This document shows positions 10,961-28,228 of a stretch of DNA of 64,000 nt, piece after piece. Every line of letters begins with the position of its first letter. Position 1 is the stretch's first letter. The DNA is from Paraburkholderia sp. GTDB taxonomy: Bacteria; Pseudomonadota; Gammaproteobacteria; Burkholderiales; Burkholderiaceae. The DNA lies in the NCBI RefSeq assembly GCF_050742655.1, contig NZ_JBOIGG010000017.1, forward strand, positions 10,144 to 74,143, in the 5' to 3' direction. The notes under the pieces are model-generated. The model had not been told where the DNA came from. It worked only from the letters and a program-made list of their open reading frames with translations, and did no database searches. The position numbers and the translations under genes are program-made.

Positions 10961-11191
10961 CTATCGCCTTGCGGATGATTTGACGGAACCGCGTGTAAAT
11001 ATCAATCCGCCGGCAATTGCCGACGATATCCCCGCAACGAAACCCCAGCGCAAGGCGAACACCAGTGCACGCGCACCGCATGCGTCGCTGCATTCGACGG
11101 TTCCCGCTGGCAGGTCGATGTAAAGCGCGAAAAGCCCTCCAGCTAATGCCCCAAAAACGAACAGGGACGTAATAGTTAGCGTTGCTCTCAT
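10961..11191 (-). CDS. small two-TM membrane protein, candidate immunity protein
   Basis: 76 aa with two hydrophobic segments around an ECSDAC loop. Its ATG overlaps the effector TGA (ATGA, 11188-11191), suggesting translational coupling. Confidence 0.6.
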   Translation of the reverse strand: MRATLTITSLFVFGALAGGLFALYIDLPAGTVECSDACGARALVFALRWGFVAGISSAIAGGLIFTRGSVKSSARR

Positions 11192-11796: not shown

Positions 11797-11799
11797 CGC

Positions 11800-12333: not shown

Positions 12334-12758
12334 GATGTCTGTCTCGCACACGCGATGAGCCTGTCGCGGCAAACAGGCACATCGTTTCGTTCTCCCGCTG
12401 CTTCGGCATCGCTGACACGCTCCTCGTAAAACGTTCGTGGCCTACTCACACGACGCTAACGTGTCCCGCACGGGTCGATGTCAACAATTGTCACCGCGAG
12501 AAAACCTCCGCCGCCGGCCTCATGCAGCCGCTACCGCGAAGCCACCCCAGTTCCTCCCGCCTCACCAAACCACGCCCCCGAAAGAGTTACAATTGCGCTC
12601 TTTCGAGCACAAAACCCGTACAAAACCGTGCCCATGCGCCGGCCTCGTACCGTTTGTCTCGTCCCGGATTCACCTTGCGACTGCCCGCTCCAGTTGTCAC
12701 CGAGCGCTGTGACCCACGTCGACCGGTCGCAAATCCACTGATTGATTAAAGGTCTTCC

Positions 12759-13853: not shown

Positions 13854-13860
13854 CGACGAA
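13843..13860 (+). repeat. degenerate direct repeat copy 1 (overlaps ychF stop)
   Basis: TCAACGTCtgaCGACGAA matches 27890-27907 at 15 of 18 positions. Confidence 0.4.
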
Positions 13861-13875
13861 CCACACCCCGGATTG

Positions 13876-13907
13876 ACGACCCCATGGACCTTGCGCCATG
13901 GGGTCGT
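13876..13907. terminator. hairpin between convergent ychF and 13937 gene
   Basis: ACGACCCCATGG-accttgcg-CCATGGGGTCGT, a perfect 12-bp stem with no U-tract. Confidence 0.55.
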
Positions 13908-13936
13908 GAAGAACCTGCGTCAGGTCAGCGTCGACG

Positions 13937-14470
13937 TCATTGCGCGCCCGACGTCTTGTCCACACCGGTTACCGTCTTGTACGGTGGCACGGCCTTCGGG
14001 TCGTTCATCGTCTTGTCGATCACCTGATCGACGTCGGCGGTCTTTCCGAGTTCGACCAGAAACTTCTGCTTGTCGAAGTCCGGCGACACGCATCCTTCCA
14101 CATAGATAAAACGCCGTTGCAGCGTGAGCCACAGCGTCGTGCTGTCACGCCAATGGGTCGCGTAGTTGATGTTCGTCAGGCGCCGTCCAACCGCCTCCTC
14201 GATCTCCTTGTCGTACAGATAGCCGTTCGACAGCCGGCAACGCCCCTCCACCCAGCAGCTGTTGCCGCGCTCGATCCGGTAATGCGCCTCGTCGAGCCAC
14301 TCCTGCTCGGTCTCGAGCGGCCCGAGCGGCACCGGGCAATCGGCGATCGCCTTCGAGACCTGGAAGAACGGATCGTGGCCGCGGTTCACGCGCGTTTCGT
14401 CGGCGAGCGTCACCTGGCTTGCCAGCGAAATCACGAGTGCCGCGATGCGGCAACCGGTCAGGTATTTCAT
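13937..14470 (-). CDS. secreted Cys-containing hypothetical protein (BON-like C-terminal half possible)
   Basis: Start ATG 14470 (MKYLTGC...), signal-peptide-like N-terminus, CP..GP and GNSCW.EGRCR motifs, and normal codon usage. Confidence 0.65.
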   Translation of the reverse strand: MKYLTGCRIAALVISLASQVTLADETRVNRGHDPFFQVSKAIADCPVPLGPLETEQEWLDEAHYRIERGNSCWVEGRCRLSNGYLYDKEIEEAVGRRLTNINYATHWRDSTTLWLTLQRRFIYVEGCVSPDFDKQKFLVELGKTADVDQVIDKTMNDPKAVPPYKTVTGVDKTSGAQ

Positions 14471-14547
14471 CGGCGTCCTTCTCCTTTGCGTTCTCTGGCA
14501 TCGAGCATCGGCACGTCGTCGGCAATCATACTGCGCGGGCCTGCCCA

Positions 14548-14640
14548 CTTGCGCGCGAGCAGCGCGACGCGCCTCGCTTCGGCCAGACAATACGCGCACG
14601 CGGCGCCGACGATAGCGCCATCCATCACCACGAAGTCGAC
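14548..14640 (-). pseudogene. decayed N-terminal fragment of a DAO-type FAD-dependent oxidoreductase
   Basis: Reads VDFVVMDGAIVGAACAYCLAEARRVALLARK, a Rossmann beta-alpha-beta with the GxGxxG motif damaged. It has no start codon of its own and no continuation. Confidence 0.45.
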
Positions 14641-14642
14641 GT

Positions 14643-15239
14643 TCAAATCAGTTTCTCGCGATCCAGCCAGGCCACGACCGCGTTCGCTGACTGCTCCGCA
14701 TTCCATTGCGCGGTGTCGAGACGTAGCTCCGGTTGTTCGGGCGCCTCGTAGGGCGAGTCGATACCCGTGAAATGCGTGATGAGTCCGCTGCGCGCCTTGC
14801 GATAGAGGCCCTTCGGATCGCGTGCCTCCGCGACCTCGAGCGGTGCGTCGACGTGGATTTCGACGAACTCGCGTTCGCCGAACAGTCGCCGTGCGGCGAG
14901 CCGCTGCTCGCGAAACGGCGAGATGAACGTGACGAGCACGATCAGTCCGGCATCGACCATCAGCCTCGCGACCTCGCCGGCACGCCGCACGTTCTCGACG
15001 CGATCCTCATCGGTGAAGCCGAGATCGCGGTTGAGCCGCTGACGCACGTTGTCACCGTCAAGCACAAAGCAGTGGCGGTTGCGCGCGAAGAGCCGCTCGT
15101 CGACGAGATTCGCGATCGTCGATTTACCCGCTCCCGACAAACCGGTGAACCATAGTACGCACGGCTGCTGGTTCTTCTGCGCAGCGCGGGCTTCGGCACC
15201 GATCGTCACGTTCTGCCAGATGAGATTGTTTCCACTCAT
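14643..15239 (-). CDS. cysC: adenylyl-sulfate (APS) kinase
   Basis: [13 protein letters not shown]-loop, LDGDNVR, GFTDEDR.EN, ISP and [22 protein letters not shown] motifs. Confidence 0.95.
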
Positions 15240-15269
15240 GGACGAATTCTCCAGACACCCCGCGTGGGC

Positions 15270-16451
15270 TTAGGGCTGCGATACCGCCGCCGTGCGACGC
15301 AACGCCGCAAGCGGGACAAGACCTGCCGACGCGACCGCGAATACGAGCATAACCGCGTAGATCGCCGGGTAGCCGGTGCGGCTCGCGACGAAGCCCGCAG
15401 CGATACCGCCCGCGGCCACGCCGAGATCCCAGAACGACGTGAACATCCCGAGCGCGGCGCCGTGCTGCGAGGTATCGGTGTTGCGGATCACGACGAGCGC
15501 AAGCGACGGATACAGCAGCGACAAACCAAGCCCCATCGTAAAACCGCCAGCTACCGCAACAGCAAGCGAAGGCGCGATGCCGACCAGCGCAAGGCCGCAC
15601 GCCTCGACAAGCGCGGCGCCCAGCGCGACGCGGTATGGTCCGAGCTTGTCGGGCAGGTGACCGAGGAAGAGCCGCGACCCGACATACGCGAAGCCGAACA
15701 CGTTGAACGCCAGGATGCCATTGTCGATGCCCCGCTTCGCCATGTGCAGCGAAACGAACGACGCGAGTGCCGCATAACCCATCGATGCAAACGCGAGCGC
15801 TATACCAGGCACGAATGCCGTACCCGGAAAGAACGCCGTCTTTTTCGCCGCGCGGACACGTGCCGGCGCCGCCTTGCGCGAAATCAGCAGCGCGCCCACC
15901 ACCGGCGTGACCGTGCAGACCGCCCAGACCGACCCGAAATCGAGCGCCTTCATGAGCATCACGCCGGCGAGCGCGCCGAGCGTGACGCCAGTCCACATGC
16001 TAACGCCGTACAGGCCGACGATCTTGCCGCGCCGCTCGGCCGGCGCGAGTGCGACGAGCCACGTTGCGCCGGCCGTGAACACCGCCCCCTCGCCGATGCC
16101 GTGCAGCACCCTGACCGCGACCAGCGCGTCCAGGTTCGACGCCACCGCATAGCTCGCACCCGCGAGCGCGCAGAGCACGGCCCCGGCCATCATCAGTGTC
16201 TTGTGGCCGATGCGATCGGACAGACGCCCGGCGATGGGCCGCGTAATCACCACGGCCACCGCGATCGCAGCGATCACCGTACCGACGCTGACGTCGCCGC
16301 CGCCCATCCTGTCTTTCACGTAGAACGGCAGGACGGAAAGCGTCGCACCGATGCCGAAGTGACAACAGAAAAGGCCGAGAAAAAGCGGCATGTAAGTCCC
16401 GTAGAACCGCCACCCCGATGTCTTGACGCTGGCTTCAGTGCGCTCGTCCAT
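15270..16451 (-). CDS. MFS transporter
   Basis: About 12 hydrophobic segments, motif A GRLSDRIGHK and second-half LPDKLG. Confidence 0.9.
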   Translation of the reverse strand: MDERTEASVKTSGWRFYGTYMPLFLGLFCCHFGIGATLSVLPFYVKDRMGGGDVSVGTVIAAIAVAVVITRPIAGRLSDRIGHKTLMMAGAVLCALAGASYAVASNLDALVAVRVLHGIGEGAVFTAGATWLVALAPAERRGKIVGLYGVSMWTGVTLGALAGVMLMKALDFGSVWAVCTVTPVVGALLISRKAAPARVRAAKKTAFFPGTAFVPGIALAFASMGYAALASFVSLHMAKRGIDNGILAFNVFGFAYVGSRLFLGHLPDKLGPYRVALGAALVEACGLALVGIAPSLAVAVAGGFTMGLGLSLLYPSLALVVIRNTDTSQHGAALGMFTSFWDLGVAAGGIAAGFVASRTGYPAIYAVMLVFAVASAGLVPLAALRRTAAVSQP

Positions 16452-16509
16452 CTGTCGCTCCCTGTCCCGTTACTGAGCTAGTCACCACTGTCTCCTCCAC
16501 ACCGCGCCG

Positions 16510-17364
16510 CTAGCCCGGCATCGCGTGGAAAAAGTGTGTCGGCAGATGGACGGCGAGCCCCTCATAAATTTCCGCGCAAACCGCCAGACCGTCGCTCGCA
16601 AACGTGCCGGCGGGCGGCGTACCGACGCGGATCACCGACTTGCCCGTATGAAGCAGACGCGCGGCCACCGCGAAATCGCCGACGAGCGCACAACCCGGCG
16701 CGACCATCCGCGTGCGCACGATGATCGTGCCGTTCGCCTTCAGGTCGGCGAGGATGCTGCCCTTGCCGAGCATCTGATGATAGTAGTCGACGGAATTGAC
16801 GATCATCGCGTGCGCGGTCGCGCCGTTCTGCTCGATCTCGTTGCAGGCGGCCAGCACGCCGTCGACATAGCTGCCCGAATACTTGAGCTGCGTCACGCCG
16901 GGGTAGTTCAGAAGCCCGTTGGGGCCGAGCGTCAGCGCCTGGTTCTCGGCGGTCGCGAGCCGCACCAGCAGACGGTAGTCGATGAACTCGGCGATCGCCC
17001 GCTCGTCGGCGAAGAGCGCTTCGGGAAGCTGCACCCATCCGGAGATCGGCCGCACGGCAGCCTCGCTCGTGCCGAAGCGGAACGTTGCTTCTTGACGGAG
17101 CGCCCCTTCGAAGACATCTCCCGTCTGGCCCGCGGGCGGCCGGCTCTCGGACCAGAAGCGGCTCGTCGGCGTGTCGATGCGGCGCTTCCGGAACAGCTGG
17201 CTCACCATCAGGCGCGGCCGGTCCTGCGTCGGCTTGAACGCCTCGGTGATCGTGTAATCGAAATGAACCTCGGTGTTCGGACCATGGACGACGAACGCGC
17301 GGGCAAATGCCTCGCCCGACGAAAGCTGCTCGACTGCATCGACCGCGGATGGATTGCCTGACAT
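16510..17364 (-). CDS. HK97-fold capsid-like protein, putative family 3 encapsulin shell
   Basis: EATFRFGTSEAAVRPISGWVQLPEALFADERAIAEFIDYRLLVRLATAENQAL resembles the HK97 major-capsid P-domain/spine helix. The C-terminal LVGDF and EIYEGLAV..P..F also fit. It is 284 aa, sits inside a biosynthetic operon, and has no phage genes nearby. Confidence 0.78.
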   Translation of the reverse strand: MSGNPSAVDAVEQLSSGEAFARAFVVHGPNTEVHFDYTITEAFKPTQDRPRLMVSQLFRKRRIDTPTSRFWSESRPPAGQTGDVFEGALRQEATFRFGTSEAAVRPISGWVQLPEALFADERAIAEFIDYRLLVRLATAENQALTLGPNGLLNYPGVTQLKYSGSYVDGVLAACNEIEQNGATAHAMIVNSVDYYHQMLGKGSILADLKANGTIIVRTRMVAPGCALVGDFAVAARLLHTGKSVIRVGTPPAGTFASDGLAVCAEIYEGLAVHLPTHFFHAMPG

Positions 17365-17425
17365 GAGCTTGCCTCGCTATAAGGAGAAAACGGATTGAAG
17401 AACCAGACGCGATACTGAAGACGGG

Positions 17426-18151
17426 TCACCGGATCGCATGGCAAACCAGTCGCTCGTAAAACGGACGATGGTGCTCGAAGTACTGCTTGAGCATCGGGTG
17501 GTTGTCGACCGTCGCCTCATAGTCGTGGTGCTGCGCGCTGAATCCCGAGCTTTGCGACACGCCCGTATGCCACTGCCGCGTGCGCTGCCATTCGGGCCGG
17601 TCCTCGGGCTGCCATGTCAGCGCATGGTCGAGGAACGGCAGCCCGGTCTCGCAGCACCAGCGCGCGATGACCGCTCGCGGGTCCGCGATGAGCCGCTCGG
17701 CGTCGATCACGATCGGTAACGAGGACTTCAGGCCGCGCACGAGTTCGAAGATCTCGAACAGGTGCTCATAGCCCACCTCGGGACAGGTGATCGTGGGCTT
17801 CATGTGATATAGCGAACTGATCGTCCGATGCGGCTCGCGCACGATGAATGTGTGCTCGAAATCGGCGATCGCTTCGGGATGCTCGAACAGATAGCGGTAG
17901 CGGTGCTCGACCGTGTCCTTGAAGAACACGGGACGCGTCTGCGCCAGCGCGCGCATCTGCGCGAACAGCGCGGCCTCCGATTCCACTTCGACGGTCGAGC
18001 CGTCGACCTCCGGCACGCTCACGCGCCCGGTATCGATCAGTGTGACGAGCGGCTCATGGATCACGGTCACGTCGCCGCGCTCGAGCATCATGCGCAGGAA
18101 CGCCGTCGACATCGCCCGCTGATGGGCCCACATCGCGATGATCTTGTTCAC
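17426..18151 (-). CDS. sulfotransferase family protein
   Basis: N-terminal IIAMWAHQRAMSTAFLR (5'-PSB-like loop), HEPL, IVREPHRTISS (3'-PB-like) and VIDAERL. GTG start with a GGAGG Shine-Dalgarno. Confidence 0.75.
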   Translation of the reverse strand: MNKIIAMWAHQRAMSTAFLRMMLERGDVTVIHEPLVTLIDTGRVSVPEVDGSTVEVESEAALFAQMRALAQTRPVFFKDTVEHRYRYLFEHPEAIADFEHTFIVREPHRTISSLYHMKPTITCPEVGYEHLFEIFELVRGLKSSLPIVIDAERLIADPRAVIARWCCETGLPFLDHALTWQPEDRPEWQRTRQWHTGVSQSSGFSAQHHDYEATVDNHPMLKQYFEHHRPFYERLVCHAIR

Positions 18152-18177
18152 GCATCACCTCCCTTGATCCGTCGCAA

Positions 18178-19161
18178 TCATTGCGACCACGCAGTCGGCA
18201 GACGATCCCAACGATGCCGGCGTAACTCCGCCAGCAGCTCGGGCGACAGCGGCGGCGCATCGCTCACGGCCATGTTGGCCCGCACGTTCGCGATCTGTCG
18301 CATGCCGGGAATCACCGTCGACACGGCCGGGTGATGAAGAATGAAACGCAGCGCGAGTTCCGGCAGCGTGGCGCCGTCGGGCACGATGCGCTTCAGCGCG
18401 TCGGCCCGCTCGACCGTCGGTCCGAGATTCTCCGGACCGAAGTAGGTGCTGCGCCAGTCTTCGGGCGGGAAGGTGCTCGTTCGCGTCAGCGTGCCGGTCA
18501 GGCCGCCTTCGTCGAAAGGCACGCGCGCGATGATCCCGATGTCGCGTTCCAGCGCCACGCGGAACAATTCGTCTTCGGGCGCCTGATCGAAAATGTTGTA
18601 GATCACCTGGATCACGTCGATGAGCCCGGTCTCGATCGCCTTCACGCAATTGCCCGGCTCCCAGCGATTCACGCTGATCCCGATGCCCTCGATGAGACCT
18701 TCGGCACGCAGGTCGCTCATCGTGCGCTGCCACGATTCGTCGTTGGCCCAGCGGTCGTCCCACACATGGAATTGCATCAGGTCGATCCGGTCGACACCGA
18801 GATTCTCGATACTGCGCTGGGTGTACTCGCGAATGTGCGCGGCCGGAAACACGTCGTCGAGCGTGTCGTTGGCGCGAGGCGGCCACTCGCGGTTCTTCGG
18901 TGGAATCTTCGTCGCGACGTACAGCCGACGATCAGAATGCGCATGCAGCACGCGACCCAGCATCTGCTCGCTGATACCGCGTCCGTAGACCCATGCGGTG
19001 TCGAAAAAATTGCAGCCGGCTTCGACTGCCGCATCGAGGCAGAGAGGCGCGGTGTCGTAGTTGGCACCAGTGAAATTGCCCGGGCCGCCGGCAATGCCCC
19101 ACATGCCGTAGCCGATCTCGCTAACCTGCCAGCCGAGACGTCCCATCCTTCGGTAATGCAT
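18178..19161 (-). CDS. aldo/keto reductase
   Basis: VSEIGYGMW, GCNFFDTAWVYG.G.SE, VATK, SIENLGVDRIDLMQFH and VIPG motifs. Start moved to ATG 19161 (MHYRRMG), with AGGAG upstream. Confidence 0.92.
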   Translation of the reverse strand: MHYRRMGRLGWQVSEIGYGMWGIAGGPGNFTGANYDTAPLCLDAAVEAGCNFFDTAWVYGRGISEQMLGRVLHAHSDRRLYVATKIPPKNREWPPRANDTLDDVFPAAHIREYTQRSIENLGVDRIDLMQFHVWDDRWANDESWQRTMSDLRAEGLIEGIGISVNRWEPGNCVKAIETGLIDVIQVIYNIFDQAPEDELFRVALERDIGIIARVPFDEGGLTGTLTRTSTFPPEDWRSTYFGPENLGPTVERADALKRIVPDGATLPELALRFILHHPAVSTVIPGMRQIANVRANMAVSDAPPLSPELLAELRRHRWDRLPTAWSQ

Positions 19162-19199
19162 CGCGACTCCTCGCTTGTAACTACCTTGTGTCATTCGTA

Positions 19200-22100
19200 T
19201 CAAGCAGCACCCAGCAACTGACGGCCATATCGGGCAATCGCGTTGTCCAGATCAACGCCCGCGAGACCATGCGTCCGTTCGAGCGCATCGCAACCCGCCC
19301 GGTCGAAGAGACCGGGATTGTCCGTCAGCAAAACCGAGAACGTCGCGGCCAGCGCGGCCTCGTCGTTTTGCGCGGACGGCAGCAACCGGCGCAGCAAACT
19401 GAGTTCGTGTGATCCATGCTGCGCGATGTGCGCGTCCAGCGCGGCAAGCCATTGCCCGCACGAGAGCGTATCGAGCGTGGCGCCGGCATGCGAAAACGCT
19501 TCGGTGAAGCACACGCTCCGCGGATGGAATACGTGGTACGTACGGTCCCATGCGTCGATATCGAAGACTGCCGATACCACGCGGGACGCGACGTAGTCGA
19601 CCGGCGACCAGTCCGAACGCATCGGCACGGAGGGTCTCGCGTTCAGCTGCGCCATCGCCGTCAGCAGGAAGTGCGTGAGCGCCCGCGGATTCGGTACACA
19701 ACGTGCTCCCTCGCCGCCCGACGGCATCACCTCGCCGAGCCGGAACACCGTGACCGGCAATCCGGTCAGACGTGCGTCGAGCAGCATCCGTTCGGCGATC
19801 CACTTCGAGCGGCTGTAGCCGGAACGCGGAATGATCGCGTGGCTGGGATCGAACGCTTCGTCGAGCGGCGAAGTGCGGCGCGCGGCTTCCTGCTCGAACG
19901 CGCCGAGCGTCGACACGAAGAAGAACGGCTTCTCGCGACGCTCGAGCGACAGGCGCAGTAACTGCTGCGTCGCGAGCACGTTCGACGCTCGATGCGCACG
20001 ATAGTCGTAAGCGAAATTGACGAGCGCTCCGCAGTGGACGATCGCGTCGCAGCGCGCGGCGAGTGCGTCGCGATGCGATGGGTCGAGGCCGAGTCCCGGT
20101 GCGGCGAGATCGCCGCCGACCGCATGAAGTCTCCCCGCATAACGCGCATCCCACAGATGCTTTTCGTCGAAGCATTCGACCAGCCTGCGCTGCGGATCGC
20201 CGTCCGTGCGCAGCAGGACGACGACCTCCAGATCGTCGTCGCGATCCAGCAGCGCCTTCGCGAGATAATTGCCGACGAAGCCGGTGCCGCCCGTCAGCAG
20301 CACGCTGCGAGGTGCGTGTCGTCGGGCCAGCGATGGCATGTACCGTGCGTCACGCGTCTCGCGGTTACCGATGCTCGCGTCCGCAGCCGGCGATATGTCG
20401 AACAGCTTCCCGTGCGCGGTCGCGAAGAAGCGCGCATCGCGCTCCATCAGCGCCTCTTCGGGTTCGCCCGTATCGCCGCCTGCAAGCAGATGCTCGATGT
20501 GCCGGCCGGCCTTCGCCGCGCTCGCATGCGCGAGCAGATCGCTGACGCTAAAGCGCAGCGCAAACAGACGCTCGAGTTCAATCGCCGTCGCAAGCGCGTT
20601 GAGCGAGTCCCCGCCGGCTTCGAAGAAGTCGTCGTCGACGCCGAGATCCGCGCAGCGCAACTGCGCACCAAACACCGCCAGCACGCGCGCGATCACGTCG
20701 TCATCTGCGACGGGCACGGCGTGAAGCATCTGAAGATTGGTGTCGGCGAGATAGTCGTCGAGCTGTTCCTGCAGGACCTTGCGATTCACTTTCCCGCTTT
20801 CCGCCAGCGGCATCGAGGCGAGCACGAAGTAATGCCGCGGCAGGGACGCGCGCGGCAGAACCCCGCGCAGATGCCGCTCGATTGTCGTGCGGTCGAGATC
20901 CGCTGCGCCGGTCACGAAGAGTGCAATCGACCGCGTGCCGCGCTCGCCCGCGACGAATGCCTTCGCGTGATGCACATGGGGGCAGCGCTCCGCGGCCGCC
21001 TCGATCTCGCCGAGTTCGATCCGCACGCCGCCCACCTTCACCTGAAAGTCCTTGCGGCCGACAAAACGCAGTTCGCCGTGGCTGTCGAAATAGCCGAGAT
21101 CGCCGGTACGGTAGAGCGTCGCACCGGGAATCGTCGGGAACGGGTTGTCGATGAACACGTGCCCGGTCAGTTCGGGTCGTCCGACGTAGCCGGCGCCGAC
21201 GCAGATACCCCCGATCAGCAACTCGCCGCACGCGCCGGGCGGCAGCGGTCGCAGCTCAGGGTCGACGATGACGACATAGCAGTTGTCGATCGGGCGGCCA
21301 ATCGGGATCGACATGCCGTCTGCCGCCTCAGCCGGATGAAAGACCATGCCGATCGACGTCTCCGTCGGACCATACGCGTTCGTGATCCGCAGATGCGGCA
21401 ACAGCGTGCGCATCTTGTGAACCATCGGCGGCGTAATTTCCTCGCCGCCCACGATCAACTCCGCGAGCGTCGAGAGCTTCGCGCAAACCTGGTCGTCGTG
21501 TTCGGCGAGTGCAACGATCTGATTGAACACGCTCGGCACGAAGTCCGTCATCGTGACGCGATAGCGCGCGATCGTGTCGACCGTCGTCTCGAGATCGAGG
21601 AAAGCACCCTGCTTCGGAATCACGACTTTCGCGCCGGTCGTCAGCGGCCAGAACAGTTGCCAGACCGACGAGTCGAACGTGTGCCGACTGTTTTGCAGAA
21701 TGCACGCGCTGTCGCCTGCCACACGATCGAAATAGCGCGACATGAAGCGGAAGCGGTTTGCGAGCCCGCCGTGCAGGTTCAGCGCGCACTTCGCGCGACC
21801 CGTCGTGCCCGACGTGAAAATGCCGTAGATCGCATCGCCCGGTTCGATCCCGACATCGGGCCGCGCGCGCTGCGGCTCGAGCAGATCGACGTCGATCGCG
21901 AGCGCGCCGGCGCGAAATGCCGCGGGCAAATCGTCTGCGTTTGCGCAGACCACGACGTCGCTCGACAGCTCCTCCAGTGCCTGCACGAGACGCTCGACAG
22001 GCCAGGCATGATCGAGCGGCACGAACGCGGCGCCGAGCTTCATCAGCGCGTGATACGCGACCGGCATCTCGAGACTGTTCACGAGCAGCACCGGAACGAT

Positions 22101-22949
22101 CGAGCCTTTCACCACGCCGCGCGTGGCGAGTTCGACAGCAAAGGCATTCGCCAGGCGATCGAACCCGGCGTAGGTGAGCCAGCGGCCATCGAAGCAAAAC
22201 GCGGGACGTGCCGGGTGCCGGTCGACGCTGTCTTCGATCATCCGTGGAATCGCACGCCACGCACCGTTGTCGTACGCTTCGCCCGCGAGTGCGCCGACCA
22301 CGCTCTCGAACGAAGCGGAGCCGAGACCGCGCGCGGTGCCAGGCGTCGCCTCCGGATCAGTGAGCAATTCGTGCAGGATTTCCGCATACAGCTCGGCGAC
22401 CGCGTCGCACGCCTGCGCCCACGGATCATCCTCCGCGCAGACGGCGATCACCGACAGCATGTCTTCGCCGAGCCGGCACAGGATGCGCACGGCTGCCCGC
22501 CCCGCATTCAGTTCGACGGGGCGACTGATCAGGTCGACCTGCATCGCCCGATCGGGGACGTCGGCGCTGCGCGCGGCATCGAGCAGGCGTAGCGCCTGAT
22601 CGCGCGGCGCGAAGTTCAGCGACTCGTAGGGCCACTGGGTCCAATGCGCGATGCCGGGCACTGTGTCGCGACGGTGGCGGCTATCGACCGTCACCGGCAA
22701 ATAGCGGTCGAGTCGTGTGCATGTCTCGATCGCGGCGAGCGCGGCCGTCAGTGTGAGTGTCGGGACATCCGCGGCCGGTTCGATCCGTCGCACGGGCCTC
22801 GCATAATGGCCGAGTATCTGAACGGCGTATTGATGTGATATCGGACTCGATACAGAAGTTGATATCGGAGTCGATATCGCCGCATCGGCAATATCAAACG
22901 CGCTGGCCGCATTCTCGTTTTCTGAAGTCGTTAAATGTGTTCGCACCAT
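19200..22949 (-). CDS. stand-alone NRPS-like A-T-R (adenylation, carrier, thioester reductase) enzyme
   Basis: A-domain motifs IFTSGTTG, TFDSS, NAYGPTE, YRTGDL, GRKDFQVKVGG.RIELGEIE and SGKVNRK. Carrier-domain DDFFEAGGDSL. Reductase LLTGGTGFVG and YSRSKW (YxxxK). Start is uncertain; 22949 was chosen. Confidence 0.93.
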   Translation of the reverse strand: MVRTHLTTSENENAASAFDIADAAISTPISTSVSSPISHQYAVQILGHYARPVRRIEPAADVPTLTLTAALAAIETCTRLDRYLPVTVDSRHRRDTVPGIAHWTQWPYESLNFAPRDQALRLLDAARSADVPDRAMQVDLISRPVELNAGRAAVRILCRLGEDMLSVIAVCAEDDPWAQACDAVAELYAEILHELLTDPEATPGTARGLGSASFESVVGALAGEAYDNGAWRAIPRMIEDSVDRHPARPAFCFDGRWLTYAGFDRLANAFAVELATRGVVKGSIVPVLLVNSLEMPVAYHALMKLGAAFVPLDHAWPVERLVQALEELSSDVVVCANADDLPAAFRAGALAIDVDLLEPQRARPDVGIEPGDAIYGIFTSGTTGRAKCALNLHGGLANRFRFMSRYFDRVAGDSACILQNSRHTFDSSVWQLFWPLTTGAKVVIPKQGAFLDLETTVDTIARYRVTMTDFVPSVFNQIVALAEHDDQVCAKLSTLAELIVGGEEITPPMVHKMRTLLPHLRITNAYGPTETSIGMVFHPAEAADGMSIPIGRPIDNCYVVIVDPELRPLPPGACGELLIGGICVGAGYVGRPELTGHVFIDNPFPTIPGATLYRTGDLGYFDSHGELRFVGRKDFQVKVGGVRIELGEIEAAAERCPHVHHAKAFVAGERGTRSIALFVTGAADLDRTTIERHLRGVLPRASLPRHYFVLASMPLAESGKVNRKVLQEQLDDYLADTNLQMLHAVPVADDDVIARVLAVFGAQLRCADLGVDDDFFEAGGDSLNALATAIELERLFALRFSVSDLLAHASAAKAGRHIEHLLAGGDTGEPEEALMERDARFFATAHGKLFDISPAADASIGNRETRDARYMPSLARRHAPRSVLLTGGTGFVGNYLAKALLDRDDDLEVVVLLRTDGDPQRRLVECFDEKHLWDARYAGRLHAVGGDLAAPGLGLDPSHRDALAARCDAIVHCGALVNFAYDYRAHRASNVLATQQLLRLSLERREKPFFFVSTLGAFEQEAARRTSPLDEAFDPSHAIIPRSGYSRSKWIAERMLLDARLTGLPVTVFRLGEVMPSGGEGARCVPNPRALTHFLLTAMAQLNARPSVPMRSDWSPVDYVASRVVSAVFDIDAWDRTYHVFHPRSVCFTEAFSHAGATLDTLSCGQWLAALDAHIAQHGSHELSLLRRLLPSAQNDEAALAATFSVLLTDNPGLFDRAGCDALERTHGLAGVDLDNAIARYGRQLLGAA

Positions 22950-23659
22950 TTTTTGTATGGGTAGACACAGAAAGCCACGACAATCGGATACGTCGGTCCA
23001 GACCGACGCGCTTATACACGCATGCTGCACTCCAGCAAACTGCTGCCGCGGTTCCGAAAACTGAAAGCGAGATATCACCGACGGTAAGGCCGCCGTCGAG
23101 CGGATACCTGAAATATGACGTCGTTATGTTTTTATCGCGCGCCCCGACCCTGGGTGAGGCATTGGATTATTTCTTTAGCGGATGAATCGCCGGCACGATT
23201 GGAGCAAGCCATTTTTCGATTGTCAACTGCGATTCGATGGCAAAAACTTTGCGGTCCGCGAACCTCGTAGTTTCGACTGGTCCGGTTTTATCGGGTCGTT
23301 TAAATCCTGAAGAGCGACGCCGTTTACTTCTTTTACGGCATCCGTTTTTCCTGCGAATTTTCCGTAGTCGAACGCTCGCGCAAAATCGCTATCTGAAAAC
23401 CTCTACGTACTTCGATATTTCGATACTTCAATACATCGGGCACGTTCGCCCCAACCTTGCGAAGGTCTTGCACAAGGTCACGCCCGACCTCCATCACCAC
23501 AGGCATATGGTTAAACAAACTGTCCGATAGTATGCTTCGGTGCAAGGTGCGGCACTCGAGCTTTGTCATGCCGATGACGAAGTTCTCGTTGATAGTTCGG
23601 AATGCTTTCCCGGTCTACTCGCAGGATAGGTCTTGTCCAAAGGGGAGTCCCAACAGGTC

Positions 23660-25315
23660 ATGTCTGAGCCGACTGAATACGTCTTCAAGCCGCATGAGCG
23701 GCCAACGCTGCCCGGCTCTCCCTACAATCCAGACCATCCTGGCGCACGGCGCGCCGGATATTTCGTGGTCGGTTGCCTGCTCGGCATCACGCAAGGCCTG
23801 GGCAACGCGCTGGTCACGGTGAATCTGAACTTCGCTCAAGGCACGCTCGGTCTCTTCAGCAACGAGGCCAACTGGCTGAGCGCCGCCTACTTCATGGTCT
23901 ACGTCTCGGCCAATCTGATGCTGGTGAAGTATCGCCAGCAATTCGGCCTGCAGGCCTTTATCCGCTACACCCTCGTGGTGTATGCGCTGATCAACCTGCT
24001 GCACCTGTTCGTTGAAACGTTCTGGATGGCGGTGGCCGTGCGCGCGGTCAGCGCCGTTGCCGCAGCCGGCCTGACGACGCTGGCCATCACCTACCTGCTT
24101 CAGGCGATGCCCACGCCGAAAAAGATGCACGGCATCATGATCGGCATCAGCATTCCCCAGCTTGCCGTTCCGCTCGCGCGCATCCTGTCGCCCGGGCTGC
24201 TGAATGCGGGCGACTGGCACATGCTTTACTGGTTCGAGTTCGCGATGGCGCTCGCGTCGCTCACCGCGGTGATGCTGCTGCCCTTACCGCGCAGCGACCG
24301 CACCAAAGTATTCGAGCCGCTGGACTTCCTCACCTTCGCCCTGCTCGGACCAGGCCTCGCGCTGCTGATCGCCGTGGTTTCCGAAGGACGGATCGAATGG
24401 TGGCTCGAGCGTGCATGGATGGGATGGTCGCTGGCTGCCGGCATTGCGCTGGTCGTCGCAGGGCTGCTGGTCGAACATCGACGTGCGAGCCCGCTGATCA
24501 ATACGCGATTTCTGAGCAGACGCGAGATGGTGCGGCTGATCCTGGTCGCAGCGGCGATCCGTATTCTGCTTTCCGAACAGGCTTTCGGCTCGGTCGGGCT
24601 GTTGACGATATTCGGCATGCTCAACGATCAGATGATTACGCTTAACCTGATCATCCTGAGCGCTTCGATCGCCGGAATCGCGGTCAGCGTATTGACCTTC
24701 AGGGCGGACAACCCCGCCTCAGCGGTTCGGCTGGCCACGCTCCTCATCGCGATTGGCGCATTCATGGATGCCGACGCGACCAACCTCACGCGGCCGGAGA
24801 ATTTCTACTTCACCCAGGCGCTGATCGGGTTCGCGTCGCTGCTGTTCCTCGGGCGTGCGATGGTAATCGGTATGGCGCAGATGCTACTGTCGGGCGGACA
24901 GAATTACGTCAGCTTCGTGGTGCTGTTCAATATCAGCCAGAGTGTCGGCGGACAGGTCGGCACCGCGTTGCTTGGCACCTTTCAGATAATGCGCGAGCGA
25001 TTCCATTCAAACGAACTGGTGCAGACCATCACGCTGGCCAATCCGGTAATCGCCGCACGAATCCGTGCGAATGGCGTGGCTGGGTTTTCGCAGATCGTGT
25101 CGCGTGAAGCCAATATCCTTGCGTATAACGATGTATTCCTGCTCGTTGGGGTACTCGCTGTGATGACATTGATCTGGGGTTTGGTGATTCGTTGGTCGAT
25201 ACGGCGGCGTAACGAGCTTTCGCCGATCATCGTTCTCCAGCAGAAAATAATGCAGGCACAGGCTGCACAAGCCGCACAAGCCGCACAAGCCGCACAAGCC
25301 GCTCATCAAAAATAA
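23660..25315 (+). CDS. MFS efflux inner-membrane subunit (DHA2/EmrB-like)
   Basis: About 14 hydrophobic segments and W.SWRWMFY-like DWHMLYWFEF. First gene of an MFS-MFP-OMF triad. Start moved to ATG 23660. Confidence 0.85.
   Translation: MSEPTEYVFKPHERPTLPGSPYNPDHPGARRAGYFVVGCLLGITQGLGNALVTVNLNFAQGTLGLFSNEANWLSAAYFMVYVSANLMLVKYRQQFGLQAFIRYTLVVYALINLLHLFVETFWMAVAVRAVSAVAAAGLTTLAITYLLQAMPTPKKMHGIMIGISIPQLAVPLARILSPGLLNAGDWHMLYWFEFAMALASLTAVMLLPLPRSDRTKVFEPLDFLTFALLGPGLALLIAVVSEGRIEWWLERAWMGWSLAAGIALVVAGLLVEHRRASPLINTRFLSRREMVRLILVAAAIRILLSEQAFGSVGLLTIFGMLNDQMITLNLIILSASIAGIAVSVLTFRADNPASAVRLATLLIAIGAFMDADATNLTRPENFYFTQALIGFASLLFLGRAMVIGMAQMLLSGGQNYVSFVVLFNISQSVGGQVGTALLGTFQIMRERFHSNELVQTITLANPVIAARIRANGVAGFSQIVSREANILAYNDVFLLVGVLAVMTLIWGLVIRWSIRRRNELSPIIVLQQKIMQAQAAQAAQAAQAAQAAHQK
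25265..25300 (+). repeat. 9-bp coding tandem repeat (GCACAAGCC)x4
   Basis: Four exact copies at 25265, 25274, 25283 and 25292, preceded by a degenerate GCACAGGCT. Encodes the (AQA)n tail of the MFS. Confidence 0.95.
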
Positions 25316-25338
25316 CGACGGAAAGGGAACGTGATTCG

Positions 25339-26481
25339 ATGAATACACCGAACGCAGGGCCGTCGAAGGCCGCCAACGAGCCGCCTGCTGCTGCCGCTGC
25401 TACAGCGGACCCGCTAGGCCCGCCGCGCGGATGGCGCCCACCCGAGAAAAATCAGGCGACCATCATCGGCATCGTGGTGCTCGCGATCATCGCGATACTC
25501 GTCATCCTGTACGCATGGCGGTTGCCACCGTTCTCCAGCTTGCCGGAAAAGACCGATAACGCCTACGTGCGCGGCTTCGTGACGGTCATCAGCCCACAGG
25601 TGAGCGGTTATGTCACGACCGTGCCGGTCAGCGACTTCGCCGAGGTGAAGGCCGGACAAGTGCTCGTGACGATCGACGACAGCACCTATCGCGCCCGGGT
25701 CGAGCAGGCCCAGGCCAACCTCGCCGCGCAGCGGGCCACATTCGCCAATTCCGCACAGTCGCAGCGCTCGCGCGAAATCGCCATCGAGGGCCAGGAAGCG
25801 AATATCGCGAGTGCCCGCGCGCAAGTCGTCCGCACCCAGGCAGACATGCGTCGCGCCGATGCGCTGGTCAAAGATGGCTCGCTGTCGAGACGCGAACACG
25901 ACCAGGCCCGCGCCGCGCTGCTCGCCGCGCAGGCCAGCTTGCAGCAAGCCGAGGCCAGTCGCGCGATCGGCTCGGAAGATGTTCGCACCGTGCTTGTCGC
26001 GCGTCCGGGACTGAAAGCCGCGATCGATGCGAATCAGGCCGCGTTGCTCAGTGCGCAAATCGACCTGGGCCACACGATCATCCGTGCGCCCGTCGACGGA
26101 CAGCTTTCCGAGGTGAGCGTGCGTAACGGCGCCTATGTCACCGCGGGTACCCAGTTGATGTCGCTGGTCCCGCACAGCGTATGGATCGTCGCCAATTACA
26201 AGGAAGCGCAGACCCGCCACATGCGCGTCGGTCAGCCCGCAACGTTCGAGGTCGATGCGCTCGGCGGCGCCGAACTGCGCGGCCATATCGAAGAAATTGC
26301 ACCGGCGACGGGATCGGAATTCGCGGCGATTCGATCCGACAACGCGACCGGGAATTTCGTCAAGGTGGCGCAGCGTATCGCCGTGCGCATCAACGTCGAC
26401 CCAGGGCAGGAACTGGCAAAACGGTTGCGGCCAGGCATGTCGGTCGAGACCTCGGTCGATACTCGCGGCGATAGACAATGA
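25339..26481 (+). CDS. HlyD/EmrA family periplasmic adaptor
   Basis: TDNAYV.G...ISPQVSG, TIIRAPVDG and NATGNFVKVAQRIAVRI motifs. Confidence 0.92.
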   Translation: MNTPNAGPSKAANEPPAAAAATADPLGPPRGWRPPEKNQATIIGIVVLAIIAILVILYAWRLPPFSSLPEKTDNAYVRGFVTVISPQVSGYVTTVPVSDFAEVKAGQVLVTIDDSTYRARVEQAQANLAAQRATFANSAQSQRSREIAIEGQEANIASARAQVVRTQADMRRADALVKDGSLSRREHDQARAALLAAQASLQQAEASRAIGSEDVRTVLVARPGLKAAIDANQAALLSAQIDLGHTIIRAPVDGQLSEVSVRNGAYVTAGTQLMSLVPHSVWIVANYKEAQTRHMRVGQPATFEVDALGGAELRGHIEEIAPATGSEFAAIRSDNATGNFVKVAQRIAVRINVDPGQELAKRLRPGMSVETSVDTRGDRQ

Positions 26482-27872
26482 GCTGCCGCGTTCCTCTCCT
26501 CGTTCTTGCCCTCGCCATGCTGACGGCCTGTAACGGACCACCAGTCAAGACCGCGGCAGTGCCCGACGTCACACCGCCTGCGACGTGGCGTACCGACGCC
26601 GGACCGACGATGCCGCTGGACACCGCCTGGTGGCGGCAATTCGGCGATCCGGTCCTGACTGCGCTGGTCGAAAAGGCGCTGGCCAACAATACCGATATCA
26701 ACGTCGCCATCAGTCGCGTGCGCGCAGCGCGTGCCAATGTGCAACTGGCTCGTGCAGCGCTTCTGCCGACGCTCGATTTCAACGCCGGTGGTGTGCGCTC
26801 GACCAGCGTCGGCCCCTTCGGCGAACCGCTTCACCAGAGTGGCGGGCAGTTCGAGGTCGAAGCGGCGTGGGAGGTGGATCTGTTCGGCCGGCTGTCGGAT
26901 CAACGTTCAGCGGCACGCGATGCGTATCTGGCCAGCGAAGCAGCACGGGACGCGACGCGGTTGTCGATTGCCGGTTCGACGGCGAGCGGCTACATCACGC
27001 TGCTGAGCCTCGACGCCCAATTGAAGATCGCGCACCAGACGCTGGCTGCGCGCAAGGATTCGCTGCGTCTTGCGAAGCGGCAGTTCGATGAGGGTTATTC
27101 GTCGAAGCTGGAGCTGCAACAGGCGCAGGCGGAATACGAATCGACCGAGCAACTCATTCCCAGCACCGAACTGGCTATTGCCAGGACCGAGAATGCATTG
27201 AGCCTGCTCACCGATGAAACGCCGGCAGCGATCGAGCGCGGTGGAATCTTCGATGCGTTGGCTGAGCCCAGCATCCCTGCGGGTCTGCCGTCGAGCCTGT
27301 TGCGCCGCCGCCCCGATGTCGCGGAGGCGGAGTATCAACTCGCGGCAGCAGACAAGTCACTGCTCGTGGCACGGAAGAATTTTCTGCCGCAGGTGCAGCT
27401 ATCGACCGCGCTCGGTCGGTCCTTTTCCACCGCACAGATTGACCCGATCACGATCTGGTCGCTGGGCGGCAGTATTCTCGCTCCGTTGTTCGAGGGCGGA
27501 AGGCTGACCGCCGAGGCCGAGAAGGCCGGCGCGCAGCGCGATCAGGCAGCGTTCGCCTATCGCGGCACAGTGCTGACTGCCTTCCGCGAAGTGGAAGACG
27601 CGCTCGCTTCGGCAAAGGACTACGACGAGCAGTTGACGCTCGTCAAAGCGCAGCGCGATACGCTGGTCGAAACGTTGCGCATCGCCACCAATCGCTATCG
27701 CGAAGGCTATACGACCTATCTGGATCAGCTCGATGCACAGCGTAATCTGCTCTCGGCGCAACTCAGTGTCGTGCAGATCCGCGCCAGCGCGCTGAGCTCG
27801 CGTGTGCAGCTTTATCAAGCGATGGGCGGTGGCTGGAGCGCCGATAGTATCGATCAGGCGAAGGCGGAATAG
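26478..27872 (+). CDS. outer membrane efflux factor (NodT/OprM family) lipoprotein
   Basis: Lipobox LTAC, WEVDLFGR, PSSLLRRRPDVAEAE and LYQAMGGGW motifs. Confidence 0.93.
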   Translation: MSCRVPLLVLALAMLTACNGPPVKTAAVPDVTPPATWRTDAGPTMPLDTAWWRQFGDPVLTALVEKALANNTDINVAISRVRAARANVQLARAALLPTLDFNAGGVRSTSVGPFGEPLHQSGGQFEVEAAWEVDLFGRLSDQRSAARDAYLASEAARDATRLSIAGSTASGYITLLSLDAQLKIAHQTLAARKDSLRLAKRQFDEGYSSKLELQQAQAEYESTEQLIPSTELAIARTENALSLLTDETPAAIERGGIFDALAEPSIPAGLPSSLLRRRPDVAEAEYQLAAADKSLLVARKNFLPQVQLSTALGRSFSTAQIDPITIWSLGGSILAPLFEGGRLTAEAEKAGAQRDQAAFAYRGTVLTAFREVEDALASAKDYDEQLTLVKAQRDTLVETLRIATNRYREGYTTYLDQLDAQRNLLSAQLSVVQIRASALSSRVQLYQAMGGGWSADSIDQAKAE

Positions 27873-27889
27873 TCACGGAGACCGTCGCC

Positions 27890-27907
27890 TCAACGTCCAG
27901 CGACGAA
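27890..27907 (+). repeat. degenerate direct repeat copy 2
   Basis: TCAACGTCcagCGACGAA, 18 bp after the OMF stop, matches 13843-13860 at 15 of 18 positions. Confidence 0.4.
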
Positions 27908-28228
27908 GCGCGCACAGACCTGGGGCATCTTCACCCTCTCTCCCGGAAAGCCGCGCACCACCGTGGCTTTCTTTGTCGTCCGCCGCGCCGTCATCCGCGT
28001 TTCTGCCGATGCGGGGTTCGGCGAGACGGGTGATACATTGCGCCATTCATGAGCCGGCGAGGCCCGCCAGCCGTGCCCGACGATCGTCGGCGGACCATGA
28101 AACACATCGAAAGATTAGCTTTCGCACAATCCGCAGGACTCCAGCATTTTATTGTCATCGACCGGAATTAGAATCGCGCATCCGCCCAACCGGCGTTCAC
28201 CACACAAGCTCTCGAAGGAGACCCATCG

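What the first reader, a model, noticed from the sequence alone, without database searches (positions are those of the whole stretch)
16510..17364. Lone HK97-fold capsid gene domesticated as a probable nanocompartment shell
Seen in sequence: the 284-aa protein has a capsid-like spine-helix segment (RPISGWVQLPEALFADERAIAEFIDYRLLVRLATAENQAL). It lacks any long N-terminal scaffolding region, and no portal, terminase, protease or tail gene occurs in the 64 kb. It is wedged between a sulfotransferase and an MFS gene in operon spacing. Inference: a family 3 encapsulin, a poorly characterised class whose cargo and assembly are largely unknown.
Basis: partly seen in the sequence, partly recalled or inferred. 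Interest (0 to 1): 0.82.

Follow-up and report, generated by a model that had tools for sequence, protein, structure and literature searches.

The report
Family 3 encapsulin in sulfation operon
This gene encodes a virus-capsid-like "Family 3 encapsulin" shell protein inside a small operon that probably makes a sulfated amino-alcohol; the class is already catalogued but never tested, and this Burkholderiaceae copy is a horizontally acquired, compact and possibly more tractable example.

Summary
It matches NCBIfam NF041188 (family 3 encapsulin shell protein) end to end at 340.9 bits (cut-off 180). Its AlphaFold model is a complete HK97 fold; the best PDB match is HK97 prohead I (E 4e-18). No phage head genes were found in the window or the genome.

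It is the fourth gene of a cassette: NRPS-like A-T-R, aldo-keto reductase, sulfotransferase, shell, MFS transporter, plus cysC here. The first four genes keep this order in 69-73 of 75 related loci from Burkholderiales, Alphaproteobacteria, Eremiobacterota and many Actinomycetota. This looks like the "Micromonospora/Nocardia" operon class of Andreas & Giessen 2021.

In this genome the operon lies on a 14.3-kb island. The shell family is missing from all 24 same-genus genomes searched, and four of them show an empty site. dN/dS of 0.13-0.18 shows the gene is under purifying selection.

Shell assembly, cargo and product remain untested for the whole family, and I found no convincing targeting peptide. 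Verdict: a new member of a known kind, of moderate-low interest. Its value is as a Gram-negative entry point for experiments.

The parts
16510..17364 (-). Family 3 encapsulin shell protein, 284 aa (HK97 fold, no delta domain)
   Evidence: NF041188 at 340.9 bits against a 180-bit cut-off. PF05065 at 25.7 bits. AF2 model pLDDT 82.7. Foldseek best match is HK97 prohead I, E 4e-18, TM 0.71-0.75. dN/dS 0.13-0.18.
19200..22949 (-). NRPS-like enzyme, 1249 aa from the ATG at 22949. Layout: disordered N-tail (~44 aa), half condensation-domain lobe, adenylation domain, thiolation domain, thioester reductase.
   Evidence: Pfam AMP-binding, PP-binding and NAD_binding_4; NCBIfam TIGR01733 and TIGR01746. 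N-terminal fold. Start codon read from sequence. Specificity residues D-S-W-D-I-G-A-I-G-K by motif position.
18178..19203 (-). Aldo-keto reductase, 341 aa; its start overlaps the NRPS-like stop by 4 bp
   Evidence: PF00248, E 6e-51. Closest solved structure is IolS/AKR11. 72-86% identical across phyla, the most conserved gene of the cassette.
17426..18151 (-). Sulfotransferase-like protein, 241 aa
   Evidence: PF19798 Sulfotransfer_5, E 4.5e-11. Present directly upstream of the shell gene in 73 of 75 loci.
15270..16451 (-). MFS transporter, 393 aa, directly downstream of the shell gene
   Evidence: PF07690, E 5.6e-43; also PF06779. A homologue follows the shell gene in 56 of 75 loci.
14643..15239 (-). 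Adenylyl-sulfate (APS) kinase CysC, 198 aa; makes PAPS
   Evidence: PF01583, E 4e-66; TIGR00455 over its cut-off. Linked to the cassette only in proteobacterial loci.
13937..14473 (-). Signal-peptide-bearing 178-aa protein of unknown family; possibly part of the island, not of the conserved core
   Evidence: No Pfam or NCBIfam hit. 66-75% identical copies lie downstream of cysC in the Trinickia loci. Sequence.
22950..23632 (.). Divergent, lower-GC (54-56%) intergenic region between the biosynthetic operon and an efflux operon; presumed promoter and regulatory region
   Evidence: No consensus sigma-70 site was found.
23633..27872 (+). Tripartite efflux operon on the same island: DHA2/EmrB-type MFS, HlyD-family adaptor, outer-membrane factor
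   Evidence: TIGR00711 and PF07690. HlyD and OEP families.
13856..28212 (.). 14.3-kb island, absent from same-genus genomes, inserted between ychF and an ABC sugar-transporter operon
   Evidence: In same-genus genome G016, ychF is followed after 216 bp by the homologue of window position 28213. G024, G013 and G003 also lack the segment. NF041188 was found in 0 of 24 same-genus genomes.

Best explanation
The gene encodes a Family 3 ('natural product') encapsulin, an HK97-fold capsid protein recruited into a six-gene biosynthetic operon.

Inferred pathway:
1. The A-T-R enzyme adenylates an alpha-amino acid, loads it on its carrier domain and releases it reductively as an amino-aldehyde. Asp235 is retained. 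An Asp at specificity position 278 hints at a cationic or polar side chain.
2. The aldo-keto reductase reduces the aldehyde to an amino-alcohol.
3. The sulfotransferase sulfates it using PAPS, whose supply is boosted by the linked CysC.
4. The MFS transporter exports the product.

The shell protein is inferred to self-assemble into a closed icosahedral compartment. It would enclose one or more of these enzymes so that the reactive aldehyde is confined. This is the logic proposed for the family by Andreas & Giessen.

Shown here: family membership, the predicted fold, the operon and its cross-phylum conservation, purifying selection, and horizontal acquisition. Inferred: shell assembly, which enzyme is cargo, the substrate and the product.
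For: - Family and fold: NF041188 scores 340.9 bits against a 180-bit cut-off, full length. The AF2 model (pLDDT 82.7, pTM 0.79) has an N-helix, E-loop hairpin, spine helix and A-domain. Foldseek finds HK97 prohead I at E 4e-18, TM 0.71-0.75.
- Conserved cassette: the gene order A-T-R, AKR, sulfotransferase, shell is present in 69-73 of 75 loci from four phyla, and an MFS follows in 56.
- Same substrate expected throughout: the A-domain specificity residues are the same at the six scripted positions, apart from Ala/Gly at 322, in every orthologue where the motif scan worked (about two thirds).
- PAPS logic: CysC is linked to the cassette in the proteobacterial loci.
- Selection: dN/dS of the shell gene is 0.13-0.18, as low as the AKR.
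- No phage context: there is no portal, prohead protease or second capsid gene in the genome.
- Literature: the operon looks like the 'Micromonospora/Nocardia' class with the proposed aldehyde-sequestration logic (PMC8346489 main text and Fig. S9).
Against: - No Family 3 protein has been shown to form a shell or load cargo (PMC11664910), and no Family 3 structure was found in the PDB.
- I found no targeting peptide. The AKR and sulfotransferase termini are conserved to the last residue, but they are of normal length relative to IolS, so they may simply be catalytic.
- The N-terminal half-C-domain and disordered tail of the A-T-R enzyme are absent from most actinobacterial orthologues. They therefore cannot be a universal loading domain.
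- The substrate prediction rests on hand-placed motif positions. The paper describes SDRs in this class, whereas this cassette has an AKR. Class assignment rests on taxa and the figure legend, because the figure itself is not held.
Confidence: 0.6

Rival explanations
1. The HK97-fold protein does not form a closed cargo-filled shell. Instead it acts as a capsomer-like oligomeric platform (pentamers or hexamers, or an open or membrane-docked cage). This platform would couple the pathway to the adjacent MFS exporter and channel the product out of the cell.
For: - An MFS gene directly follows the shell gene in 56 of 75 loci.
- In a distant Family 3 branch the shell protein is fused to a C-terminal hydrophobic tail. 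WP_018240478.1 from Ensifer sp. BR816 (402 aa) has a tail that weakly resembles the end of MFS_4 (PF06779, E 0.0037).
- The window's MFS also matches PF06779.
- Andreas & Giessen described such fusions in Mesorhizobium.
- No cargo-targeting signal is evident.
Against: - The fusion tail shows no significant BLASTP similarity to the window's MFS, and its Pfam hit is below threshold.
- The Streptomyces and Nonomuraea loci lack a homologous MFS next to the shell gene.
- The full HK97 fold, including E-loop and P-domain, is kept, as expected for shell formation.
- Adjacency to an exporter is common in biosynthetic clusters for trivial reasons.
Confidence: 0.15
2. A closed shell forms, but its role is not aldehyde confinement. 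It might store or sequester the sulfated end product or PAPS/PAP, or protect an unstable enzyme.
For: [quoted passage not shown] The sulfotransferase is the shell gene's immediate, invariant upstream neighbour.
Against: There is no direct evidence. The one chemical feature common to Family 3 clusters, noted in the literature, is aldehyde or ketone intermediates. Here the A-T-R plus AKR pair fits that pattern.
Confidence: 0.15
3. It is a leftover or active phage, GTA or PICI major capsid gene that merely happens to sit among metabolic genes.
For: PF05065 Phage_capsid scores just above its gathering threshold (25.7 against 24.2 bits). The best structural matches are true phage capsids, not Family 1 encapsulins.
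Against: - The TIGR01554 HK97 capsid model scores below its cut-off (18.6 against 27.5).
- There is no portal, S78 protease or other capsid gene anywhere in the genome.
- The same non-phage gene order recurs across four phyla.
- There is no delta domain.
- The HK97 cross-link residues K169 and N356 align to R90 and D258 (alignment, with my own numbering of gp5).
- The gene is under strong purifying selection within the operon.
Confidence: 0.02

Closest known systems
Family 3 'Natural Product' encapsulins, Micromonospora/Nocardia operon class (Andreas & Giessen 2021, Nat Commun 12:4748, PMC8346489; NCBIfam NF041188)
   Same: - Same protein family: a full-length model match, and 50-67% identity to Micromonospora, Nocardia, Nonomuraea and Streptomyces members.
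- Same cassette around it in those genera: A-T-R, reductase, sulfotransferase, shell.
- Same predicted ~50-residue N-terminal extension with a helix and a strand (compare PMC11664910).
   Different: - The host is a Burkholderiaceae bacterium. Searches of the held parts of the 2021 supplements (two files were cut when stored) found no Family 3 entry from Trinickia, Acidovorax or Ramlibacter, and Burkholderia appeared only as Family 1 rows.
- The proteobacterial versions add cysC, and their A-T-R enzyme carries an N-terminal half condensation domain.
- The reductase here is an AKR, whereas the paper's text speaks of SDRs.
Bacteriophage HK97 gp5 major capsid protein (PDB 8FQK, 3QPR, 1OHG)
   Same: Same fold, and the best structural match (TM 0.71-0.75). 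Detectable sequence similarity at E ~1e-5 over the E-loop, spine helix and A-domain. The Glu aligned with HK97 E363 is kept as E265.
   Different: - About 20% identity.
- No 103-residue delta scaffolding domain.
- No partner protease, portal or terminase.
- The cross-linking K169 and N356 are replaced by R90 and D258, so no chainmail is expected.
- It is encoded in a metabolic operon.
Family 2 encapsulins with biosynthetic cargo (terpene cyclase/geosmin synthase systems; PMC13739066, 2026)
   Same: The concept is the same: an HK97-type shell encoded in a natural-product gene cluster and enclosing a biosynthetic enzyme.
   Different: It is a different shell family. Family 2 cargo is loaded through long disordered terminal domains with recognisable motifs, and no such conserved motif was found here.
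Fungal ATRR glycine betaine reductase (Hai, Huang & Tang 2019, bioRxiv 10.1101/559534)
   Same: The chemical logic is the same: an NRPS-like A-T-R reduces a small charged carboxylic acid to the aldehyde, and a second reductase takes it to the alcohol.
   Different: In ATRR both reductions are in one protein, and its A domain lacks Asp235. Here Asp235 is retained, which points to an alpha-amino acid. The second reduction is done by a separate AKR and is followed by sulfation.
Rhizobial Family 3 shell with C-terminal helical, MFS-like domain (Mesorhizobium class in PMC8346489 and PMC11664910; WP_018240478.1, Ensifer sp. BR816)
   Same: Same shell family (named as such by NCBI). The shell is linked to an MFS-like membrane element.
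   Different: There the hydrophobic segment is fused to the shell protein. Here a complete, separate MFS transporter gene follows the shell gene. Shell identity is only about 27%.

Membership tests
Family 3 encapsulin (NCBIfam NF041188; Andreas & Giessen 2021) | Sequence match to the family's curated equivalog model above its cut-off, over the full length | tested here: met
   340.9 bits against a 180-bit cut-off, E 3.9e-102; residues 17-278 cover model positions 2-266 of 266
Family 3 encapsulin (NCBIfam NF041188; Andreas & Giessen 2021) | [quoted passage not shown] | tested here: met
   AF2 model with pLDDT 82.7: H16-30, E32-34, E-loop hairpin 96-112, spine helix 121-145, A-domain. Foldseek finds HK97 prohead at E 4e-18. 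This is a prediction, not an experimental structure.
Family 3 encapsulin (NCBIfam NF041188; Andreas & Giessen 2021) | Embedded in a natural-product biosynthetic cluster (sulfotransferase, reductase, NRPS/PKS or AmCP genes) | tested here: met
   A-T-R NRPS-like, AKR, sulfotransferase, shell, MFS, CysC. The order is conserved in 69-73 of 75 loci.
Family 3 encapsulin (NCBIfam NF041188; Andreas & Giessen 2021) | No phage genes in the neighbourhood (the curation criterion used in the paper) | tested here: met
   No phage family among the 45 window ORFs scanned. No PF04860, PF04586 or further PF05065 in the whole genome. Terminase and integrase families were not searched genome-wide.
Encapsulin in the functional sense | Self-assembly into a closed icosahedral shell | not testable with these tools
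   No multimer prediction or experiment is available. No Family 3 shell has been reported (PMC11664910).
Encapsulin in the functional sense | Dedicated cargo-loading peptide or domain on a co-encoded enzyme | tested here: inconclusive
   The AKR tail HRWDRxPTxWS and the sulfotransferase tail are conserved to the last residue but are of normal length. The disordered N-tail plus half C-domain of the A-T-R enzyme is lineage-restricted.
Phage major capsid protein, HK97 family (PF05065 / TIGR01554) | Match to the family models above their cut-offs | tested here: inconclusive
   PF05065 scores 25.7 against 24.2 bits, a partial match to positions 20-172 of 280. TIGR01554 scores 18.6 against 27.5 bits, below its cut-off.
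Phage major capsid protein, HK97 family (PF05065 / TIGR01554) | Part of a head module (portal, prohead protease or scaffold, terminase), with an N-terminal delta domain or a separate scaffold | tested here: not met
   None in the window or the genome. The protein begins about 60 residues before the E-loop, and phage hits carry an extra 100-230 N-terminal residues.
Phage major capsid protein, HK97 family (PF05065 / TIGR01554) | HK97-type isopeptide cross-link residues (K169, N356; catalytic E363) | tested here: not met
   In the HMMER alignment to gp5, K169 aligns to R90 and N356 to D258, while E363 aligns to E265. R90 is nearly invariant in the family, and position 258 varies. gp5 numbering is from my own knowledge.

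The most novel reading that the evidence does not exclude
The Family 3 shell is physically coupled to the MFS exporter encoded directly after it. The compartment or its capsomers would dock on the transporter, so that synthesis of the sulfated product and its export form one channelled unit. The rhizobial shell proteins that carry a fused MFS-like C-terminal tail would then be the 'Rosetta stone' fusion of the same partnership. This proteobacterial operon (six genes, Gram-negative host) would be the system in which to test it.
Probability: 0.12. Interest if true: 0.7.

Novelty: new member of a known kind. Interest (0 to 1): 0.33.

Why it matters
Family 3 is the one large encapsulin family with no experimental data at all: no shell, cargo, structure or product. 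The 2024 review attributes this partly to the hosts being high-GC Gram-positive bacteria (PMC11664910).

This survey shows that the best-conserved Family 3 cassette also exists as a compact, self-contained operon in Burkholderiaceae. Cultured carriers include Trinickia terrae 7GSK02 and Paracidovorax valerianellae DSM 16619. These copies appear to stem from a single transfer out of Actinomycetota and carry their own PAPS supply gene.

That gives experimentalists a smaller and probably easier system for three tasks:
- testing whether these proteins form compartments;
- finding what the compartments enclose;
- identifying the sulfated metabolite.

The gene itself is not a discovery, because current NCBI models would already name it.

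Tried and rejected
- **Prophage, GTA or PICI capsid:** rejected. There are no head-module genes in the window or genome, the non-phage synteny is conserved, the TIGR01554 score is sub-threshold, and the cross-link residues are absent.
- **Glycine betaine to choline-O-sulfate pathway (ATRR analogy):** considered and set aside. ATRR lacks Asp235, whereas this A domain keeps it.
- **N-terminal ~240 aa of the A-T-R enzyme as a new cargo-loading domain:** Pfam found nothing. The PDB profile search gave only a marginal AmbE C-domain tail (E 0.009). AF2 plus Foldseek show a single CAT-fold lobe, i.e. half a condensation domain without the catalytic HHxxxDG lobe. It is missing from most actinobacterial orthologues, so it is not a universal loading device. 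Its disordered first ~44 residues remain a weak candidate.
- **AKR or sulfotransferase C-terminal tails as targeting peptides:** conserved but not extensions relative to IolS. Unresolved.
- **Homology between the Ensifer fusion tail and this operon's MFS:** BLASTP was not significant.
- **Anti-phage defence role:** no PADLOC hit for the shell, sulfotransferase, AKR or the secreted protein.
- **Promoter and terminator scan:** nothing above chance.
- **Later experimental papers on Family 3:** none found in the open-access library. Subscription-only papers are not covered.

Full report
**Observation**

The ORF at 16510-17364 is real. It lies on the minus strand, starts with ATG behind a GAGG ribosome-binding site, and encodes 284 aa. 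Codon-position GC (0.66/0.47/0.83) is typical of coding sequence in this 64.6%-GC window.

In the AlphaFold2 model (mean pLDDT 82.7, pTM 0.79), residues 96-112 form the E-loop hairpin and 121-145 the long P-domain spine helix. HMMER aligns this stretch to the HK97 gp5 spine helix.

**What the protein is**

- NCBIfam NF041188 ('family 3 encapsulin nanocompartment shell protein', equivalog) matches at 340.9 bits against a cut-off of 180, covering model positions 2-266 of 266.
- Pfam Phage_capsid is only just above threshold, at 25.7 against 24.2 bits. The HK97 capsid model TIGR01554 is below its cut-off.
- Foldseek against the PDB puts HK97 prohead I and II first (E 4e-18, TM 0.71-0.75). Family 1 encapsulins score lower (TM 0.52-0.59).
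- No Family 3 structure appeared in either the sequence or the fold search of the PDB.
- In the gp5 alignment, the chainmail residues K169 and N356 correspond to R90 and D258, and E363 to the invariant E265 (gp5 numbering from my own knowledge). No HK97-type cross-link is expected.
- Among 1.84 billion representative proteins, only 12 clusters match at E<1e-30, so the family is small. Weaker hits are 380-460-aa phage capsids that align only through their C-terminal ~230 residues. The window protein therefore lacks their N-terminal scaffold region.

**Context**

On the minus strand the genes run as follows:

| Coordinates | Product |
|---|---|
| 22949-19200 | NRPS-like enzyme: A, T and thioester-reductase domains |
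| 19203-18178 | aldo-keto reductase; start overlaps the previous stop by 4 bp |
| 18151-17426 | Sulfotransfer_5 protein |
| 17364-16510 | shell protein |
| 16451-15270 | MFS transporter |
| 15239-14643 | APS kinase CysC |

Gaps between these genes are 26-61 bp. A secreted 178-aa protein of unknown family follows at 14473-13937.

The rest of the window is ordinary chromosome: trpEGDC, dsbC, ubiH-like, ychF, ABC transporters, hemA, prfA and prmC. There is no phage gene. The whole genome has no Phage_portal, no S78 prohead protease and no other Phage_capsid match.

**Conservation elsewhere**

A scan of one genome per species returned 76 loci. The order A-T-R, AKR, sulfotransferase, shell is kept in 69-73 of 75 informative loci, and a homologous MFS follows the shell gene in 56. 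The loci come from:

- Burkholderiales: Trinickia, Paracidovorax, Ramlibacter, Noviherbaspirillum;
- Alphaproteobacteria: Stellaceae, Arenibaculum;
- Eremiobacterota;
- many Actinomycetota: Micromonospora, Catellatospora, Nonomuraea, Nocardia, Actinoallomurus, Streptomyces and others.

cysC accompanies the cassette only in proteobacterial loci. The AKR is the most conserved gene, at 72-77% identity between this genome and actinomycetes. The shell protein is 50-67% identical over the same comparison.

Against Trinickia and Ramlibacter, dN/dS is 0.13-0.18 for the shell, 0.12-0.15 for the AKR and 0.16-0.28 for the other genes. The shell gene is therefore a constrained, functional part of the operon.

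This looks like the 'Micromonospora/Nocardia' class of Family 3 systems in Andreas & Giessen 2021. The figure itself is not held, so the assignment rests on taxa and the legend. The paper speaks of SDRs where this cassette has an AKR.

**Origin in this genome**

NF041188 is found in the window's genome but in none of 24 same-genus genomes or 16 other genomes of the order.

In same-genus genome G016, ychF is followed after 216 bp by the homologue of window position 28213. Three other genomes also lack the segment. Window positions ~13856-28212 are therefore a 14.3-kb island. It carries the biosynthetic operon and a divergently transcribed EmrB/HlyD/OMF efflux operon.

In a maximum-likelihood tree of the shell proteins, all non-actinobacterial sequences form one clade (SH-aLRT 99). 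This clade sits beside Nonomuraea and Plantactinospora within the actinobacterial diversity, and the window groups with Trinickia. This fits one transfer out of Actinomycetota followed by spread among Gram-negative soil bacteria. The rooting is by midpoint only.

**Mechanism**

Domain content gives a clear chemical outline. An acid is adenylated, thioesterified and released reductively as an aldehyde. The AKR reduces it to an alcohol. A PAPS-dependent sulfotransferase sulfates it, with PAPS supplied by CysC. The MFS exports the product.

By position relative to the FDxS and NxYGPTE motifs, the A-domain specificity residues are D235, S236, W239, D278, I299, G301, A322, I330, G331 and K517. Positions 278, 299, 301 and 517 were read by eye from the printed region and sequence. 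The six scripted positions are the same, apart from Ala/Gly at 322, in every orthologue where the motif scan worked, about two thirds of them.

Asp235 is retained, which argues for an alpha-amino acid. This contrasts with the fungal betaine reductase ATRR, which lacks Asp235. Asp278 hints at a basic or polar side chain. That is inference only.

The shell's role, confining the amino-aldehyde with its producing and consuming enzymes, is the hypothesis of the 2021 paper. It fits the A-T-R plus AKR pair but is untested.

**Search for cargo signals**

- The AKR ends in HRWDRxPTxWS and the sulfotransferase in Y-x-D-x-H-x-P-F-Y-x-x-L-x-x-H-A. Both are conserved to the last residue across phyla.
- The AKR tail is only about 8 residues longer than in IolS.
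- The A-T-R enzyme of proteobacteria and some Micromonosporaceae carries about 200 extra N-terminal residues. These comprise a disordered ~44-residue tail and a single CAT-fold lobe resembling half a condensation domain.
- Most actinobacterial orthologues lack that N-terminal region.

No universal targeting element emerges. This agrees with the 2024 review.

**A lead worth noting**

WP_018240478.1 from Ensifer sp. BR816 is annotated as a Family 3 shell protein. It is 402 aa, with a ~110-residue hydrophobic C-terminal tail that weakly resembles the end of MFS_4 (PF06779, E 0.0037). It is like the Mesorhizobium fusions described in the literature.

In the present class, a complete MFS gene that also matches PF06779 follows the shell gene in most loci. 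This fusion-versus-adjacency pattern suggests that shell and transporter work together physically. However, the tail is not significantly similar to this MFS, and clustering with exporters is common. I give this reading about 0.12.

**Verdict**

The family and this operon type were published in 2021 and are built into NCBI's naming models. Other windows of this scan have reached the same conclusion for sister loci. The finding is therefore a new member of a known kind.

It is of interest mainly as a compact, horizontally acquired Gram-negative version of a class that still lacks any experimental validation. No such validation was found in the library up to November 2026.

Noticed in passing
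window 10787-12748: The PAAR (11800-12372) and Tae4 amidase (11188-11796) T6SS effector cassette is a second, separate insertion. Same-genus genomes go from the ubiH-like gene to ychF with only ~230 bp between them. The segment is AT-richer than its flanks (GC 54-59%).
   Followed up: partly
window 23633-27872: An EmrB-type DHA2 MFS, a HlyD adaptor and an outer-membrane factor form a tripartite efflux operon. It is transcribed divergently from the encapsulin operon and lies on the same 14.3-kb island. It is not found next to the Trinickia copies of the cassette.
   Followed up: partly
window 22239-22949 (minus strand): The A-T-R enzyme starts with a ~44-residue disordered tail followed by a lone CAT-fold lobe, i.e. 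half a condensation domain without the HHxxxDG lobe. This 'long form' occurs in all proteobacterial and some Micromonosporaceae orthologues. Most actinobacterial ones are 'short form'.
   Followed up: yes
P0172 = WP_018240478.1 (Ensifer sp. BR816), not in the window: A Family 3 shell protein fused to a ~110-aa hydrophobic, MFS_4-like C-terminal tail. In the window's class, a separate MFS gene follows the shell gene in 56 of 75 loci. This is a possible Rosetta-stone indication of shell-transporter coupling.
   Followed up: partly
window 13937-14473 (minus strand): A 178-aa protein with an N-terminal signal-like sequence (MKYLTGCRIAALVISLASQVTLA) and no Pfam, NCBIfam or PADLOC match. It is conserved at 66-75% identity downstream of cysC in the Trinickia loci, so it may belong to the proteobacterial version of the cluster.
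   Followed up: partly
loci L001-L074 against window 18178-19203: The aldo-keto reductase is more conserved across phyla than the shell protein or any other cassette gene. It is 72-77% identical between this Burkholderiaceae genome and Actinomycetota, which is unusually high for such a phylogenetic distance.
   Followed up: no
locus L050 (Streptosporangiaceae MAG): One locus keeps the shell gene and the MFS but shows no A-T-R, AKR or sulfotransferase within 10 kb upstream. This is either a rearranged cluster or a different operon type.
   Followed up: no
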